A stretch of 6,450 nucleotides of DNA from a virus (lineage: Duplodnaviria > Heunggongvirae > Uroviricota > Caudoviricetes). The position numbers and the translations under genes were made by a program. Each line of letters opens with the position of its first letter. Within the stretch, counting starts at the first letter, position 1. Positions 1 through 5,966 of this stretch are shown piece after piece. The stretch lies in IMG/VR virus record IMGVR_UViG_2711768018_000010; one strand, 5' to 3'. Under the pieces are notes generated by a model, which was given only the letters and a program-made list of their open reading frames with translations, had not been told where the DNA came from and made no database searches.

Positions 1-69
1 TGTACTGGATTCGAACCAGTGACCGATTGCTTAGAAGGCAATTGCTCTGTCCGGCTGAGCTAACAACGC
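1..69 (-). tRNA. tRNA-Arg, anticodon UCU; 3' end truncated by the window edge
   Basis: Minus strand from 69 reads GCGTTGT-TA-GCTC-AGCCGGACA-GAGC-A-ATTGC-CTTCTAA-GCAAT-CGGTC-ACTGG-TTCGAAT-CCAGT-ACA. This gives a canonical cloverleaf: D stem GCTC/GAGC, anticodon stem ATTGC/GCAAT, T stem ACTGG/CCAGT, T loop TTCGAAT. The last 4 nt of the acceptor and the CCA lie beyond position 1. Confidence 0.85.
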
Positions 70-82
70 ATGATGCAGATAA

Positions 83-159
83 TGGACCGCCATCGGGGAC
101 TTGAACCCCGCGCAGCCAGCTTCGAAGGCTGGCGCTCTTTCCTGATGAGCTAATGGCGG
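83..159 (-). tRNA. tRNA-Arg, anticodon UCG, 77 nt with encoded CCA
   Basis: Minus strand 159 to 83 folds with a 7-bp acceptor stem (CCGCCAT/ATGGCGG), D stem GCTC/GAGC, anticodon stem CCAGC/GCTGG with loop CTTCGAA, T stem CGGGG/CCCCG with loop TTCAAGT, discriminator T and CCA. Confidence 0.85.
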
Positions 160-166
160 TATGTGA

Positions 167-243
167 TGGTGGCCCTTGCTGGATTTGAACCAGCGACCTG
201 GCGATTATGAGTCGCACTGGGTCATTTCCGATACGCCCTGCCT
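167..243 (-). tRNA. tRNA-like, anticodon CAU (Ile2/Met type, ileX/ileZ-like); only the 3' two-thirds is canonical, so possibly a pseudo-tRNA
   Basis: Minus strand 215 to 167 reads GCGA-CTCATAA-TCGC-CAGGTC-GCTGG-TTCAAAT-CCAGC-AAGGGCC-A-CCA, closely matching the 3' part of E. coli ileX as I recall it. The 5' side (243 to 216) has no GGCCCTT acceptor complement and no D stem. Confidence 0.45.
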
Positions 244-332
244 GCTGACAGGCTTTCATCACATCTGAAAATATAGCACCCTGACTGATACTGTAGTACC
301 TAAGGTTCCAGAAACTGTGATGTATCCGGCAC

Positions 333-355
333 AGAAAAGCCCCTCCGGAGAGGGC
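333..355 (-). terminator. Candidate intrinsic terminator between the methylase/gap region and the tRNA cluster
   Basis: Minus-strand RNA GCCCUCUCCGGAGGGGC forms a GC-rich stem with a one-nucleotide bulge and is followed by UUUUCU. Hand-folded only. Confidence 0.4.
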
Positions 356-544
356 TGGAGAGTGGCGCTATGTGCCATTGCATGATGCCGGGTGCCTCCC
401 GGTGAATTCAGTACCAGCACCTGAATCCGCGATTATCCCATATACCTACTCGCTGATTGCCCCTCCGCACAGGGGGATTCACCATGCCAGTTTCTTTTAA
501 CAAACTCCCCGCAAAACAGACAACTGTCAACCGTCTGAATTGTG

Positions 545-794
545 NNNNNNNNNNNNNNNNNNNNNNNNNNNNNNNNNNNNNNNNNNNNNNNNNNNNNNNN
601 NNNNNNNNNNNNNNNNNNNNNNNNNNNNNNNNNNNNNNNNNNNNNNNNNNNNNNNNNNNNNNNNNNNNNNNNNNNNNNNNNNNNNNNNNNNNNNNNNNNN
701 NNNNNNNNNNNNNNNNNNNNNNNNNNNNNNNNNNNNNNNNNNNNNNNNNNNNNNNNNNNNNNNNNNNNNNNNNNNNNNNNNNNNNNNNNNNNNN
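545..794. other. Run of 250 N (assembly gap or masked sequence)
   Basis: Uninterrupted n characters. Every ORF-track translation crossing it (X residues) is unsupported. Confidence 0.95.
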
Positions 795-1767
795 GCCCGA
801 GCGCCAGTGCCGCTTTCACTGTCGAACCCAACCCCATGAAAAAATCTGCAATCAGGTCACCCGGACGACTGCTAGCGCTGATTATCTGCTGCAGCATTTC
901 TGCCGGTTTTTCGCACGGATGTTTCCCGGGATAGAACTGCACCGGTTTATGCGTCCACACATCGGTATACGGCACCTGCACCGTCACGCCAAAATACCGC
1001 CGCAGATGTTTATATTCACTCAGCAGCTCCGCATACTGCCGGTTCAGTGAGGTATACGTATCCACCAGCTGGTGGTGGAGCTTTTCCAGTTCACCACGCC
1101 GATGCTTCTCTTCTGCCACCCGGGCAAACAGCGCCTGTAATTTCAGATAATCGCTTTCATTCGGCAACTGCCACTGACCGGCACTGAACCAGTGCGACAC
1201 CATGTTTTTCTTTCCTGTGGCATCTGCAATCTGTTTTGCCGTTATCCCCAGGGCAGCTCGCGCATCACGAAAGTAAGAAATCAGCGGGGCCATCACATGC
1301 TGTTTCAGTGCACTGCCCTTCGCCGCATACCCGGCATCTTTCGGACGATACGGCCCCTGATAATGTTCCGCGAACAGAATGCGCTCTGTGGCGGGGAAAT
1401 ACGCCCGCAGGCTTTCCTTGTTGCATCCGTTCCAGCGTCCGGACGGCTTCGCCCAGATAATATGGTTCAGCACACTGAAGCGTTCACGCATCATGATTTC
1501 GATATCAGATGCCAGGCGATGACCACAGAACAGGTAAAGACTTCCGGCAGGTTTCAGCACCCGCCAGAACTGCGCCAGACACTGGTCCAGCCACTTCAGG
1601 TAATCATCGTCGCCCTTCCACTGGTTATCCCAGCCCTCAGGCTTCACTTTAAAGTACGGCGGGTCCGTGACTATCAGGTCAACAGAATTTTCGGGTAACG
1701 ACCGGATAAATTCCAGGCAGTCGGCGTTGATTAACTCACAACTGGATATTTTTACAGTATTAAGCAT
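795..1767 (-). CDS. DNA methyltransferase, N6-adenine/N4-cytosine type with beta-class motif order (DPPY before FxGxG); orphan, 3' end lost in the N gap
   Basis: ATG at 1767. The N-terminus carries ...DLIVTDPPYF... (motif IV) and the region just before the gap carries ...DFFMGLGSTVKAALALG (motif I, SAM binding), with an HTH-like insert between. 324 codons are visible before the gap. No restriction endonuclease partner is in the window. Confidence 0.85.
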
Positions 1768-2339: not shown

Positions 2340-3161
2340 TTACCTAGTTACCTTTTTTAACTGCCGCTCAGCCCATGCTTCTTCAATATCAAACCGGGTC
2401 ACCAGCGCATCATAAAATTTCTTAACTGTTTTTTCCCATGACGCGCGTGTTATCTGGTTTGTCACCTCGCATATAGCATTAAATGCCTCCGTTGATGGTA
2501 GTCTTTCATAGCCACGACCACCACAACGCTGGCAGTCTCTGATAACAGGCATACCACGTTTTACCGACTCTTCACGATGAATGGCGACACCACGCCCACG
2601 GCAATCCTTACAGGCGGTGGAAACCTCACCCTTTCCGCCACACTCCGGACAGGCAACTTTTACCACCTCCCTGACTTTTTTCCATTCTTCCCAGTAAGAC
2701 GGATACACACCTTTCGTACACTTTGCCCATACCGGCGGCTTACCATCCGGATACTGGATCTTGTTTGTAAAAACCTCGCTTTCAATAAATTTTTTTCCGT
2801 GACAGCAGGGGCACTGTTTTTTGCTCGCCGCGCTACGGGCATAATCTTCAAACGCATACGAAGCCATAATACGCATCACTGCCGGTTTTATTTCTGCCGG
2901 GAGTTTTCTTAACGCCGCCACGCGATCACACCGACTGAGTGCATATTCTGTCAGCAATTCTGTTGCCCGCTCTCTGTCATTCATACTAATGCCCATTTTC
3001 CCAAGGAACGCAGAAACCCCCATCTCAGCCCGATTCTGTGTCATGCCCTGCGCGGCCATCACATCAGTGATACTCAGCGCATCTTTCGACGTTGAGGCCG
3101 ATGCATCAGTCAGGCCGGGGGATTTTGGGGAGTAGTATTTCGGTAAATCTTCCAGTTTCAT
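2340..3161 (-). CDS. Q: Late-gene antiterminator Q, lambda-Q family, with an expanded cysteine-rich zinc-finger region (273 aa)
   Basis: The N-terminus MKLEDLPKYYSPKSPGL...DALSITDVMAAQGM and C-terminus ...KTVKKFYDALV...VTR align with lambda Q as I recall it (MRLESVAKFHSPKSPMM...TDVMAAMGM...TVKPLYDALV...AVTR). It has four CxxC knuckles (CPCCHGKK, CPECGGKG, CKDCRGRG, CQRCGGRG) where lambda Q has two. Its start overlaps the rusA stop (ATGA) and it is followed directly by the PR'-like promoter. Confidence 0.85.
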   Translation of the reverse strand: MKLEDLPKYYSPKSPGLTDASASTSKDALSITDVMAAQGMTQNRAEMGVSAFLGKMGISMNDRERATELLTEYALSRCDRVAALRKLPAEIKPAVMRIMASYAFEDYARSAASKKQCPCCHGKKFIESEVFTNKIQYPDGKPPVWAKCTKGVYPSYWEEWKKVREVVKVACPECGGKGEVSTACKDCRGRGVAIHREESVKRGMPVIRDCQRCGGRGYERLPSTEAFNAICEVTNQITRASWEKTVKKFYDALVTRFDIEEAWAERQLKKVTR

Positions 3162-5074: not shown

Positions 5075-5106
5075 AAAATAAAAACAAAAACCCGCCGAAG
5101 CGGGTT
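5075..5106 (-). terminator. Rho-independent terminator of the hok transcript
   Basis: Minus-strand RNA CCCGC-uucg-GCGGG (5-bp GC stem, UUCG tetraloop) is followed by UUUUUGUUUUUAUUUUC. Confidence 0.75.
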
Positions 5107-5174
5107 AAGTGTGGGTGCATTGAGGATGCCTGCCCCATCAGAGGTGGCGAGGGATTTCTCCCCCGCCTGGTCTC

Positions 5175-5330
5175 TTACTCCTCAGGTTCGTAAGCTGTGA
5201 AGACAGCGACCTCCGTCTGGCCGGTTCGAATTCGTACCTCGCAGAGGTCTTTCCTCGTTACCAGTGCCGTCACTATGACGGTTAAACAGATGACGATCAG
5301 GGCGATTAACATCGCCTTTTGCTGCTTCAT
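5175..5330 (-). CDS. hokD: Hok-family type I toxin (51 aa), HokD/RelF-like
   Basis: MKQQKAMLIALIVICLTVIVTALVTRKDLCEVRIRTGQTEVAVFTAYEPEE matches K-12 HokD (RelF) as I recall it and has the Hok single transmembrane helix. ATG at 5330 lies 9 nt after AAGGAG. Confidence 0.85.
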   Translation of the reverse strand: MKQQKAMLIALIVICLTVIVTALVTRKDLCEVRIRTGQTEVAVFTAYEPEE

Positions 5331-5387
5331 AGCCTGCTTCTCCTTGCCTTTCGGCACGTAAGAGGCTAACCTAGATTTGCCGTTCAT
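5175..5387 (-). CDS. mok-like in-frame upstream reading frame (70 codons) overlapping hok
   Basis: An in-frame ATG at 5387 (GAGG 8 nt upstream) extends Hok by 19 residues (MNGKSRLASYVPKGKEKQA). In hok/mok loci, as I recall the K-12 annotation, mok is an N-terminally extended frame sharing the hok stop (mokC 69 aa versus hokC 50 aa). Confidence 0.5.
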   Translation of the reverse strand: MNGKSRLASYVPKGKEKQAMKQQKAMLIALIVICLTVIVTALVTRKDLCEVRIRTGQTEVAVFTAYEPEE

Positions 5388-5621
5388 AGATTGAGCCTCA
5401 GATTAATGTTAAGCGTCTTGCCGGACGCGTAATGTTAACTGGGGCTTTTCTCTATCTGCCTTTTGGTGTTCATGCCTGAGACAGATAGCCTCAAGCACCC
5501 GCTGCAATTCTACTTAACTCTCCTTTTCCCGCAAACCGTTTTTATCCCCAGCGGCAAATCGAATACACCACCAGCGCCACCGCCATCGCAATTCCTACCG
5601 TTGTTAATGCTTCAGGCCAGG

Positions 5622-5966
5622 TCATCGTAAAATATCCTCCACGCTTATCAGTCCGTTCCGCTCCAGATAACTCATCGCCTTATCCGGTAATTTGCAGTCT
5701 GGCTTCGCTTTCCTCAGTTGCCAGGTTAACTGCTTTACCAGCATGGTTAACTCATCGACCAGACGCTGATATCCCACTGGTTTGTATTCATGCAATTTAC
5801 CGGCTGGCTCTGCTGCCAGCGATACCAGTGCGATTTCCAGAACAGCAATATCCATCTTATATGTGCGGATGATGTCATGGTCGATTGTGCCCGGTATGCA
5901 CAGTCTCTGTGCTTCAATAGTCTCCTCTGCGTGAGCTATTAACTGCTCTCTGGTAAAAGTCGTCAT
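5622..5966 (-). CDS. Hypothetical protein (114 aa), paralogous to the adjacent 55-aa ORF
   Basis: ATG at 5966 overlaps the stop of the upstream 55-aa ORF (ATGA). It shares MTTFTREQL and [10 protein letters not shown] with MTTITKERI and [10 protein letters not shown] of the 55-aa ORF. Confidence 0.65.

What the first reader, a model, noticed from the sequence alone, without database searches (positions are those of the whole stretch)
5075..5621. hok locus with an mok-like frame, a long structured leader and its own terminator, without relBE
In K-12 this Hok (HokD/RelF) is the third gene of relBEF. Here it is preceded by about 230 nt of non-coding leader with extended imperfect inverted repeats (for example around 5443-5500), an in-frame mok-like upstream start, and a strong terminator, which looks like a self-contained hok/mok/sok-type module. 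I could not place an antisense Sok promoter. Two tiny minus-strand ORFs in the leader (14 and 12 codons) are of unknown significance.
Basis: partly seen in the sequence, partly recalled or inferred. Interest (0 to 1): 0.45.

Follow-up and report, generated by a model that had tools for sequence, protein, structure and literature searches.

The report
Intact prophage hok/mok/sok toxin-antitoxin module
This is a complete, ordinary copy of the well-known hok/sok RNA-controlled toxin module carried by lambda-like prophages of E. coli (the hokW-sokW type), the ancestral form of which K-12's relBE-hokD is a truncated remnant; its only unusual feature is a small hypervariable stretch where the antitoxin RNA first touches its target.

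Summary
On the minus strand lie hok (5330..5175, 51 aa, 100% identical to K-12 HokD), an in-frame 70-codon mok (5387..5175), a 170-nt structured leader starting at G5500, and an intrinsic terminator (5106..5089).

The leader matches Rfam RF01794 (112 bits; threshold 59). The 5' end (tac, 5500-5489) pairs with a 3' element (fbi, 5125-5113). This pairing keeps compensatory changes in other genera.

It sits exactly where phage 933W annotates sokW and where Takada et al. 2021 mutated the sokW -10.

The locus is 91.6% identical to the validated hokW-sokW. At least 80% of it is present in 2225 of 5426 complete E. coli genomes. K-12 homology starts only at the hok Shine-Dalgarno, and the relBE insertion that truncated hokD is published. 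Verdict: already known, low interest.

Side finding: a 21-nt cassette (5394-5374), which includes the complement of Sok's single-stranded 5' tail, is about 10 times more diverse than hok third codon positions. It falls into about 8 discrete alleles that keep the hairpin. This may be an antisense specificity code.

The parts
5507..5534 (-). hok promoter: -35 TTGCGG (5534..5529), 16-nt spacer, -10 TAGAAT (5512..5507); predicted start G5500
   Evidence: Read from the sequence. It aligns with the R1-type -10 TATGAT placed just before GGCGCTTGAGG, and is identical in 933W. The consensus scan did not pick it up because the -35 matches only 3 of 6. No transcript mapping was done here.
5084..5500 (-). 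full-length hok mRNA (about 417 nt), inferred
   Evidence: The 5' end is set by the first position of the Rfam model and by the conserved GGGUGCUUGAGG. The 3' end is set by the terminator. Fold z-score -7.05.
5489..5500 (-). tac (translational activator element), GGGUGCUUGAGG
   Evidence: Pairs with 5125-5113 at probability 0.90-1.00 in the full-length fold. In leader-only fragments it pairs with ucb instead. Column entropy is 0 across 92 related loci.
5441..5447 (-). ucb (upstream complementary box / anti-SD), AAGCCCC
   Evidence: Pairs with tac in leader-only folds and in the Rfam consensus structure. The element is named as in PMC9841398.
5402..5439 (-). long hairpin in the hok leader; its complement is the Sok terminator stem-loop
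   Evidence: Folds; Rfam structure.
5396..5399 (-). mok Shine-Dalgarno GAGG
   Evidence: Lies 8 nt upstream of the mok ATG. Nearly invariant: GAGG in 91 of 92 related loci, one with GATG.
5175..5387 (-). mok reading frame (70 codons), in frame with hok, so it encodes an N-terminally extended Hok
   Evidence: It has the same architecture as the annotated mokW of 933W and is 89% identical to it. In plasmid R1 proper, mok is in the +1 frame.
5374..5394 (-). hypervariable cassette: mok SD-to-ATG spacer plus mok codons 1-5. It forms the loop and inner stem of the mok-SD/dcb hairpin. Its 5392-5379 part is the complement of the Sok 5' tail.
   Evidence: Entropy peak. Nucleotide diversity is 0.31, against 0.032 at hok third codon positions. 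About 8 discrete alleles; the window's allele is in 15 of 92.
5362..5367 (-). dcb (downstream complementary box), AGCCUC; pairs with the mok SD region GAGGCU
   Evidence: Folds. PMC9841398 notes that the Sok promoter mutation lies in dcb, and here dcb abuts the Sok -10.
5344..5372 (+). Sok promoter: -35 TTGCCT (5344-5349), 17-nt spacer, -10 TAACCT (5367-5372)
   Evidence: Identical sequence in 933W. The sokW 'pro-less' mutant changed exactly this hexamer (TAGGTTAG to CCGGCTCG in hok sense; primers YO-421/422) and abolished protection. R1-type plasmids have TTGCGC-N17-TATCCT at the aligned place.
5379..5449 (+). Sok antisense RNA (about 71 nt): single-stranded 5' tail GCCGUUCAU(AGAUU), then a long hairpin and a U run
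   Evidence: Coordinates transferred from the sokW misc_RNA of AF125520 through the alignment. Fold -31.4 kcal/mol, z = -5.27, first 9 nt unpaired. The ends were not mapped here.
5340..5345 (-). hok Shine-Dalgarno AAGGAG
   Evidence: Read from the sequence. K-12 homology begins here.
5175..5330 (-). hok toxin CDS, 51 aa, identical to K-12 HokD (RelF)
5189..5192 (-). TACG motif at Tyr47 (TAC): the TadA A-to-I editing site reported for hokD (Tyr to Cys)
   Evidence: The motif is read from the sequence. Editing of hokC/D/E at this aligned position is reported in PMC5630033. Not tested here.
5146..5167 (-). G+C-rich hairpin just after the hok stop; the likely road-block for 3' exonucleolytic trimming
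   Evidence: Fold. The road-block role in R1 is described in PMC1635323. Its role here is inferred.
5113..5125 (-). fbi (fold-back inhibitory element), CCUCAAUGCACCC
   Evidence: Pairs with tac. Duplex -21.5 kcal/mol, reached by 0 of 200 shuffled 3' UTRs. The same position and pairing are kept, with compensatory changes, in Serratia, Pantoea, Buttiauxella and other genera.
5080..5106 (-). intrinsic terminator: AACCCGC-TTCG-GCGGGTT followed by a T run

Best explanation
The locus is an intact type I toxin-antitoxin module of the hok/mok/sok family, of the hokW-sokW/hokD lineage. It sits as a moron in the early-right (nin) region of a lambdoid prophage.

Inferred mechanism, by homology with plasmid R1 hok/sok and Sp5 hokW-sokW:
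1. A weak promoter (-10 TAGAAT) makes a stable mRNA of about 417 nt starting at G5500.
2. In the full-length RNA the 5' end (tac) pairs with fbi near the 3' end. This locks the RNA in a form that is neither translated nor bound by Sok.
3. Slow 3' exonucleolytic trimming, stopped by the hairpin at 5167-5146, removes fbi.
4. tac then pairs with ucb. The mok Shine-Dalgarno sits in the hairpin formed with dcb, whose loop becomes available.
5. Ribosomes translating mok, which here is in frame with hok, open the hok start site.
6. The stronger antisense promoter (TTGCCT-N17-TAACCT) makes the unstable Sok RNA of about 71 nt. Its single-stranded 5' tail pairs with that loop and with the mok start codon. 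This blocks mok, and therefore hok, translation and exposes the duplex to RNase III.
7. When Sok synthesis stops, the stored hok mRNA is translated and the 51-aa Hok peptide damages the inner membrane.

Shown here: all sequence elements, their predicted pairings and their conservation. Inferred: transcript ends, processing, toxicity of this particular copy, and its biological role.

The most likely role is the one shown for hokW-sokW, namely help with lysis and phage release on induction, and/or stabilisation of the prophage.
For: - Hok domain, with a protein identical to K-12 HokD. HokD is toxic when overexpressed (preprint 10.1101/2025.08.07.668861).
- The leader matches Rfam RF01794 over its full length, 112.4 bits against a gathering score of 59.
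- tac-fbi pairing has probability about 1. It beats 200 of 200 shuffles and covaries across genera.
- Leader-only folds reproduce the tac/ucb stem, the target hairpin and the mok-SD/dcb hairpin.
- The whole transcript is far more structured than shuffles, z = -7.05.
- The Sok fold has a free 5' tail plus a terminator hairpin, z = -5.27.
- The locus is 91.6% identical to 933W, where mokW, hokW and sokW are annotated. The promoters, both Shine-Dalgarno sequences and tac are identical; fbi differs at one bulged base.
- The regulatory elements are nearly invariant in 92 related loci.
- Upstream flanks vary between phages, while the module from about the -10 to the terminator is conserved. That fits an autonomous cassette.
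Against: - No transcript data exist for this copy, so the Sok and hok ends are transferred by homology.
- The consensus promoter scan found neither promoter. Both have weak hexamers.
- The thermodynamic prediction does not reproduce the published ucb/mok-SD pairing of the closed form. It pairs GCCCCA 5445-5440 with UGGGGC 5137-5132 instead.
- Chromosomal hokA, hokB and hokC loci were reported unable to mediate post-segregational killing (cited). A complete set of elements therefore does not guarantee activity.
- The module lies co-directionally inside the early-right operon, with no predicted terminator upstream of it. Read-through transcripts are therefore likely during lytic growth.
Confidence: 0.9

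Rival explanations
1. The locus is a decayed or silent relic. It looks complete but, like the hok loci of the K-12 chromosome, it no longer functions as a toxin-antitoxin system because of weak promoters or subtle mutations.
For: [quoted passage not shown] K-12 hok loci are described as inactive. Neither promoter reaches the consensus threshold.
Against: Every regulatory element is identical or nearly identical to the validated hokW-sokW. Diversity across 92 loci is only 0.02-0.04 in the leader and CDS, which argues for purifying selection. The Hok protein is intact and identical to a peptide that is toxic on overexpression.
Confidence: 0.07
2. hok is simply one more gene of the prophage early-right operon. 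It would be expressed only by read-through from upstream ORFs, and the leader structure would serve as a terminator or attenuator of the nin region, not as a sok-controlled switch.
For: All ORFs from 6371 down to Q (3161..2340) are on the same strand as hok. The same order is seen in L003, downstream of cro, O and P. No terminator is predicted between the upstream ORF and hok. In K-12, hokD is co-transcribed with relBE.
Against: A conserved -10 lies at the right distance from a conserved +1, and the homology between different phages begins there while the upstream flanks differ. An antisense promoter and Sok-like RNA are conserved and were shown to be needed in hokW-sokW. Read-through and autonomous expression are not mutually exclusive.
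Confidence: 0.03

Closest known systems
hokW-sokW (mokW/hokW/sokW) of Stx2 phages 933W and Sp5 (E. coli O157:H7)
   Same: The two are 91.6% identical over 523 nt. They share the same promoters, tac, both Shine-Dalgarno sequences, an in-frame 70-codon mok, the Sok promoter and the Sok hairpin; fbi differs at one bulged base. Both are carried by lambdoid prophages.
   Different: The cassette allele differs: mok begins MNGKS here and MLNTC in 933W, and 6 of the 14 Sok-tail bases differ. The Hok C-terminus is FTAYEPEE here and FVDYESEK in 933W. The sequence after fbi, including the terminator, differs. The position in the phage differs too: here the nin region upstream of Q, in 933W the attR-proximal end downstream of int after circularisation.
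hokD (relF) of the Qin cryptic prophage, E. coli K-12
   Same: The Hok protein is identical. The DNA is 94.5% identical from the hok Shine-Dalgarno through the 3' UTR and terminator. The downstream synteny is the same (rem-like ORF, DUF968, Q-like antiterminator).
   Different: K-12 lacks everything upstream of window 5344: the hok promoter, tac, ucb, the Sok target, the mok start, and the Sok -10 and -35. That segment is replaced by relBE, and hokD is co-transcribed as relBEF. The window carries the untruncated ancestral form, as stated in PMC6379469.
hok/sok (parB) of plasmid R1
   Same: The architecture and element order are the same, with recognisable sequence blocks: GCGCTTGAGGCT at the 5' end, AGCCTCTTAC...GCAAGGAGAAG..ATG, and the Sok promoter TTGCxx-N17-TAxCCT. 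The regulatory logic is the same.
   Different: Hok is only about 44% identical. In R1 proper, mok is in the +1 frame relative to hok; here it is in frame. R1's copy is plasmid-borne; this one is prophage-borne.

Membership tests
hok/mok/sok type I toxin-antitoxin family | A small hydrophobic Hok/Gef toxin of about 50 aa | tested here: met
   Pfam PF01848, E=3e-23, 81.6 bits against a cut-off of 22. PHROG 251, E=2.8e-33. 100% identical to HokD. The NCBIfam Hok subfamily hit is below its curated cut-off (48.5 against 73). That model appears to be built on the R1-type branch.
hok/mok/sok type I toxin-antitoxin family | An overlapping mok reading frame with its own Shine-Dalgarno, starting upstream of hok | tested here: met
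   ATG 5387 preceded by GAGG; 70 codons; in frame, as in the annotated mokW.
hok/mok/sok type I toxin-antitoxin family | The conserved structured hok leader (tac/ucb stem, antisense target hairpin, mok-SD/dcb hairpin) | tested here: met
   Rfam RF01794, full-length match, 112.4 bits, E=9e-26. The same helices appear in independent folds.
hok/mok/sok type I toxin-antitoxin family | Long-range 5'-3' pairing (tac-fbi) closing the full-length mRNA | tested here: met
   12 base pairs, 5500-5489 with 5125-5113, probability 0.90-1.00. 0 of 200 shuffles reach the energy. Compensatory changes are seen in 13 distinct family members at a constant distance (46-53 nt) after the stop codon.
hok/mok/sok type I toxin-antitoxin family | A cis-encoded antisense Sok RNA with its own promoter, a single-stranded 5' tail over the mok start, and a terminator hairpin | tested here: met
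   At sequence level only. The promoter and RNA are placed by alignment to annotated sokW. The -10 coincides with the experimentally mutated hexamer. The fold shows a free 5' tail and a hairpin followed by a U run.
hok/mok/sok type I toxin-antitoxin family | Sok RNA is actually made, is unstable, and represses hok; the hok mRNA is 3'-processed | not testable with these tools
   This needs a Northern blot, RACE or genetics. It has been shown for the 91.6%-identical hokW-sokW.
relBEF operon arrangement (K-12 Qin) | relB and relE immediately upstream of hokD and co-transcribed with it | tested here: not met
   No RelB/RelE ORFs are present. Homology to K-12 stops at window 5344.

The most novel reading that the evidence does not exclude
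The 21-nt cassette at 5394-5374, which includes the complement of Sok's single-stranded recognition tail, may be a specificity label under diversifying selection. Under this reading, prophage hok/sok modules that are otherwise more than 90% identical carry one of about eight discrete alleles. Each allele keeps the hairpin but changes the loop and tail sequence. Each Sok would then silence only its own hok, so several such prophages could coexist in one cell (median 2, up to 11 copies per E. coli genome) without protecting each other's toxin mRNA.

A related untested idea concerns activation. These modules sit co-directionally downstream of antiterminated early operons: PR here, and PL across attP in 933W. 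Induction could therefore switch them on through transcription running head-on into the Sok promoter.
Probability: 0.4. Interest if true: 0.45.

Novelty: already known. Interest (0 to 1): 0.15.

Why it matters
For annotation, this copy should be read as a complete hok/mok/sok module with an unannotated Sok RNA. RefSeq labels only 'hokD' in closely related loci. It should not be read as a relBEF fragment. It also shows directly what K-12's hokD lost.

The finding itself adds nothing new to biology. The side observation might. A hypervariable antisense-recognition cassette inside an otherwise frozen locus would give a simple natural example of how co-resident mobile elements keep RNA antitoxins orthogonal. 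It would also supply ready-made orthogonal antisense/target pairs.

Tried and rejected
- Consensus sigma-70 scan. It found neither the hok nor the Sok promoter, because both have weak hexamers. The promoters were placed by homology instead.
- RNAduplex between 75-nt upstream and 130-nt downstream segments. The duplexes ran on through spurious pairs and the z-scores were uninformative. I replaced this with a 13-nt tac probe, after an over-strict regular expression.
- Test of whether co-resident copies avoid sharing a cassette allele. Only a handful of same-genome sets could be retrieved: E. coli ECMA0423, S. flexneri SFBU1023 and two IMG genomes. With about 8 alleles, different alleles are expected by chance (probability of sharing about 0.12), so the test has no power. 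One pair (L028/L057) is identical throughout.
- Pedersen & Gerdes 1999, the original description of the K-12 hok loci, is not held in the library. I used secondary statements instead.
- A full-text search for prior reports of Sok-tail hypervariability returned only noise. The 2026 Hok survey states that it analysed only the Hok CDS.
- I considered reading the Rfam 'sok' hit on the minus strand as Sok itself being on that strand, and rejected it. The model runs in the hok sense and ends at the hok ATG.
- The 9-nt inverted match between the cassette and 5552-5560 is judged to be chance.
- The capped large protein searches and structure prediction were not used, because the protein is unambiguous.

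Full report
**1. What is there**

The feature lies on the minus strand.
- The 51-codon ORF 5330..5175 is a Hok/Gef toxin: Pfam PF01848, E=3e-23; PHROG 251 'MokW-like host killing', E=2.8e-33.
- It is 51/51 identical to K-12 HokD.
- An in-frame upstream ATG at 5387, preceded by GAGG, gives a 70-codon mok frame.
- An intrinsic terminator sits at 5106..5089.
- No RelB- or RelE-like ORF lies upstream.

That ORF overlaps the stop codon of the upstream 114-aa ORF (ATGA). The 12-codon ORF lies inside the 5' hairpin.

**2. Is it a hok/sok-type leader?**

Yes.
- Rfam RF01794 ('sok antitoxin') matches 5500..5325 over the whole model at 112.4 bits, against a gathering score of 59.
- That model runs in the hok sense and ends at the hok ATG. 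It therefore describes the hok leader, whose complement is Sok.
- Folding the inferred full-length mRNA (5500..5084, 417 nt) gives -169.2 kcal/mol, against -127.0 +/- 6.0 for shuffles (z = -7.05).
- In that fold the 5' end GGGUGCUUGAGG (5500-5489) pairs with CCUCAAUGCACCC (5125-5113) at probability 0.90-1.00. This is the tac-fbi closure that defines the family (PMC9841398; PMC1635323).
- With a 13-nt tac probe the pairing is stronger than in 200 of 200 shuffled 3' UTRs.
- The same pairing occurs 46-53 nt after the stop codon in Serratia, Pantoea, Buttiauxella, Kluyvera and others. It shows compensatory changes, for example UUGAGG/CCUCAA to UCUGGAU/AUCCAUGA, and GGGCGCC/GGCGCCC.
- Leader-only fragments fold into the 'open' form: a tac/ucb stem (5500-5493 with 5447-5441), a long target hairpin (5439-5402), and the mok-SD/dcb hairpin (GAGGCU 5399-5394 with AGCCUC 5367-5362).

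One discrepancy remains. The thermodynamic prediction does not give the published ucb/mok-SD pairing of the closed form. It pairs 5445-5440 with 5137-5132 instead. This is a prediction only.

**3. The Sok promoter and RNA**

- Phage 933W (AF125520) annotates mokW, hokW and a 71-nt sokW.
- The window aligns with 933W without gaps across this part of the locus.
- Transferring the coordinates gives Sok at about 5379-5449 on the plus strand, with -35 TTGCCT (5344-5349), a 17-nt spacer and -10 TAACCT (5367-5372).
- R1-type plasmids have TTGCGC-N17-TATCCT at the aligned position.
- Takada et al. made their sokW promoter-less mutant with primers YO-421/YO-422. These change exactly this hexamer (TAGGTTAG to CCGGCTCG in hok sense), and the mutant lost protection against HokW.
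- The predicted Sok has nine unpaired 5' bases (GCCGUUCAU, complementary to mok codons 1-3), then a long hairpin and a U run. Energy -31.4 kcal/mol, z = -5.27.
- This matches the description of R1 Sok: a single-stranded 5' tail that recognises a loop in the refolded mRNA.

**4. How it relates to K-12 and how common it is**

- K-12 Qin shares 94.5% identity from window 5344 (the hok Shine-Dalgarno) down to 4887, and then the downstream genes.
- Upstream of 5344, K-12 has relB-relE instead.
- K-12 hokD therefore lacks the hok promoter, tac, ucb, the mok start and the Sok promoter.
- The literature already says this. The ancestral hokD frame of about 70 codons was cut to 51 by integration of relBE (PMC6379469), and relBEF is co-transcribed.
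- The window's form is widespread. 4952 of 5426 complete E. coli genomes have a match and 2225 have at least 80% of the locus. The median is 2 and the maximum 11 places per genome.
- 83 phage records have a match, many of them Stx phages.
- A 2026 survey reports that hok is enriched in prophages.
- The module is a cassette. Homology between phages starts at about the -35/-10 of the hok promoter, and the upstream flanks differ.

**5. Mechanism**

The mechanism is inferred from R1 hok/sok and hokW-sokW. It is not tested on this copy.
- The stable full-length hok mRNA is closed by tac-fbi and is inert.
- 3' trimming, halted by the hairpin at 5167-5146, removes fbi.
- tac then switches to ucb, and the mok start hairpin becomes accessible.
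- mok translation, which here is in frame with hok, opens the hok start site.
- Sok binds through its 5' tail, blocks mok, and marks the duplex for RNase III.
- Loss of Sok releases Hok, which attacks the inner membrane.
- No element differs from the validated hokW-sokW in a way that would disable it. The promoters, both Shine-Dalgarno sequences and tac are identical. fbi differs at one bulged base.
- The TadA editing motif TACG at Tyr47 (5192-5189), reported to be edited in hokD, is also kept.

The biological role is uncertain. For hokW-sokW it is earlier lysis and twofold more phage release after induction. Prophage stabilisation and phage exclusion are the classical alternatives.

The module lies co-directionally in the early-right operon, between the replication genes and Q. 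Read-through transcription during lytic growth is therefore likely. It would run head-on into the Sok promoter. This is a possible but untested cause of the RecA-dependent loss of sokW that Takada et al. saw.

In 933W the module is at the attR end on the complement strand, and int is at the attL end on the complement strand. After circularisation it therefore lies downstream of PL-xis-int in the same orientation.

**6. Side finding: a hypervariable cassette**

I collected 92 unique hokD/hokW-type loci. The window, 933W (L001) and an E. coli chromosome (L003) were combined with IMG/VR loci from a pattern scan of the conserved Sok-promoter block and aligned.
- The transcript is nearly frozen. 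Nucleotide diversity is 0.04 in the leader, 0.025-0.032 in hok and 0.064 in the 3' UTR.
- The exception is a 21-nt cassette, 5394-5374, with diversity 0.31.
- It falls into about eight discrete alleles. The window's allele is in 15 of 92.
- The cassette is the spacer before the mok ATG plus mok codons 1-5. This is the loop and inner stem of the mok-SD/dcb hairpin. Its 5392-5379 part is the complement of Sok's 5' tail.
- It is bounded by the nearly invariant mok Shine-Dalgarno (GAGG in 91 of 92 loci) and the nearly invariant Sok -10.
- All eight alleles keep the hairpin (-12.0 to -13.5 kcal/mol). Their 14-nt tails differ at 2-9 positions.
- The cognate tail:target duplex averages -22.0 kcal/mol. 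Non-cognate duplexes average -9.2 kcal/mol.
- Copies within one genome show the same contrast: 0.23-0.41 divergence in the cassette against 0.01-0.07 in hok, in E. coli, S. flexneri and Atlantibacter.
- Diversity ten times that of third codon positions is hard to explain by relaxed constraint alone. It suggests diversifying selection, or old alleles shuffled by recombination, for antisense specificity.

I could not test whether co-resident copies avoid sharing an allele, because too few whole genomes could be retrieved. I found no prior report, but my literature check was limited.

**7. Verdict**

The thing itself is already known and very common. Interest is low for the finding as given. The cassette is the only part that might repay further work.

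Noticed in passing
window 5374-5394 (minus strand); related loci L001, L003, L005-L124: A 21-nt hypervariable cassette (mok SD-to-ATG spacer plus mok codons 1-5; its 5392-5379 part is the complement of Sok's 5' tail). Nucleotide diversity is 0.31, against 0.03 at hok third codon positions. About 8 discrete alleles all preserve the hairpin. Cognate versus non-cognate tail duplex: -22 versus -9 kcal/mol.
   Followed up: partly
window 5542-5625 (minus strand): A 27-codon hydrophobic [30 protein letters not shown]. Its ATG overlaps the stop codon of the upstream 114-aa ORF (ATGA), and it ends just before the hok promoter. Close variants are present in about 30 of 117 related loci, including 933W (MTWPEAFANVGTVMAVVLVVYSICRWR). 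It has no family hit.
   Followed up: partly
window 5189-5192 (minus strand): hok Tyr47 is encoded by TAC inside a TACG motif. This is the TadA A-to-I editing site (Tyr to Cys) reported for hokC/D/E mRNAs in PMC5630033.
   Followed up: no
L001 and L197 (phage 933W, AF125520): In 933W the hokW-sokW module sits at the attR end on the complement strand, and int/xis sit at the attL end on the complement strand. Only after excision and circularisation does the module lie co-directionally downstream of the PL operon. In the window it lies in the PR (nin) operon. In both placements, early antiterminated transcription would run head-on into the Sok promoter.
   Followed up: partly
window 327-516 (minus strand): Strong match to Rfam RF02076 (STnc100 sRNA): 123.6 bits against a gathering score of 47. 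It overlaps the 3' end of the DNA methylase ORF and lies upstream of the tRNA cluster.
   Followed up: no
window 1-237 (minus strand): A cluster of tRNA genes downstream of Q and the methylase: tRNA-Arg(TCG) at 83-159 (ARAGORN and Rfam), a tRNA cut by the window end at 1-69, and a weak sub-threshold tRNA-like match at 170-237. From my own knowledge, this resembles the ileZ-argN-argO arrangement of Stx phages.
   Followed up: no
window 545-794: A run of 250 N masks part of the N6/N4 DNA methylase gene (ORF 1767..433; Pfam PF01555).
   Followed up: no
window 5374-5382 and 5552-5560: A perfect 9-nt inverted match between the window's cassette allele (GATTTGCCG on the plus strand) and a site inside the upstream 27-codon ORF. 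About 0.6 such matches are expected by chance, and the match is absent in 933W, so it is probably coincidence.
   Followed up: partly
loci L129/L159, L141, L151, L163/L184, L168/L173, L182/L183 (Serratia, Atlantibacter, Franconibacter): Several Enterobacterales genomes carry two hok/sok copies 0.5-2.5 kb apart on the same contig. Also, some non-enterobacterial MAGs and draft genomes (Collinsella, Xanthomonas pisi, Streptomyces morookaense, Ferruginibacter, Oscillibacter) hold short contigs with E. coli-type or R1-type hok/sok. This looks like contamination.
   Followed up: no
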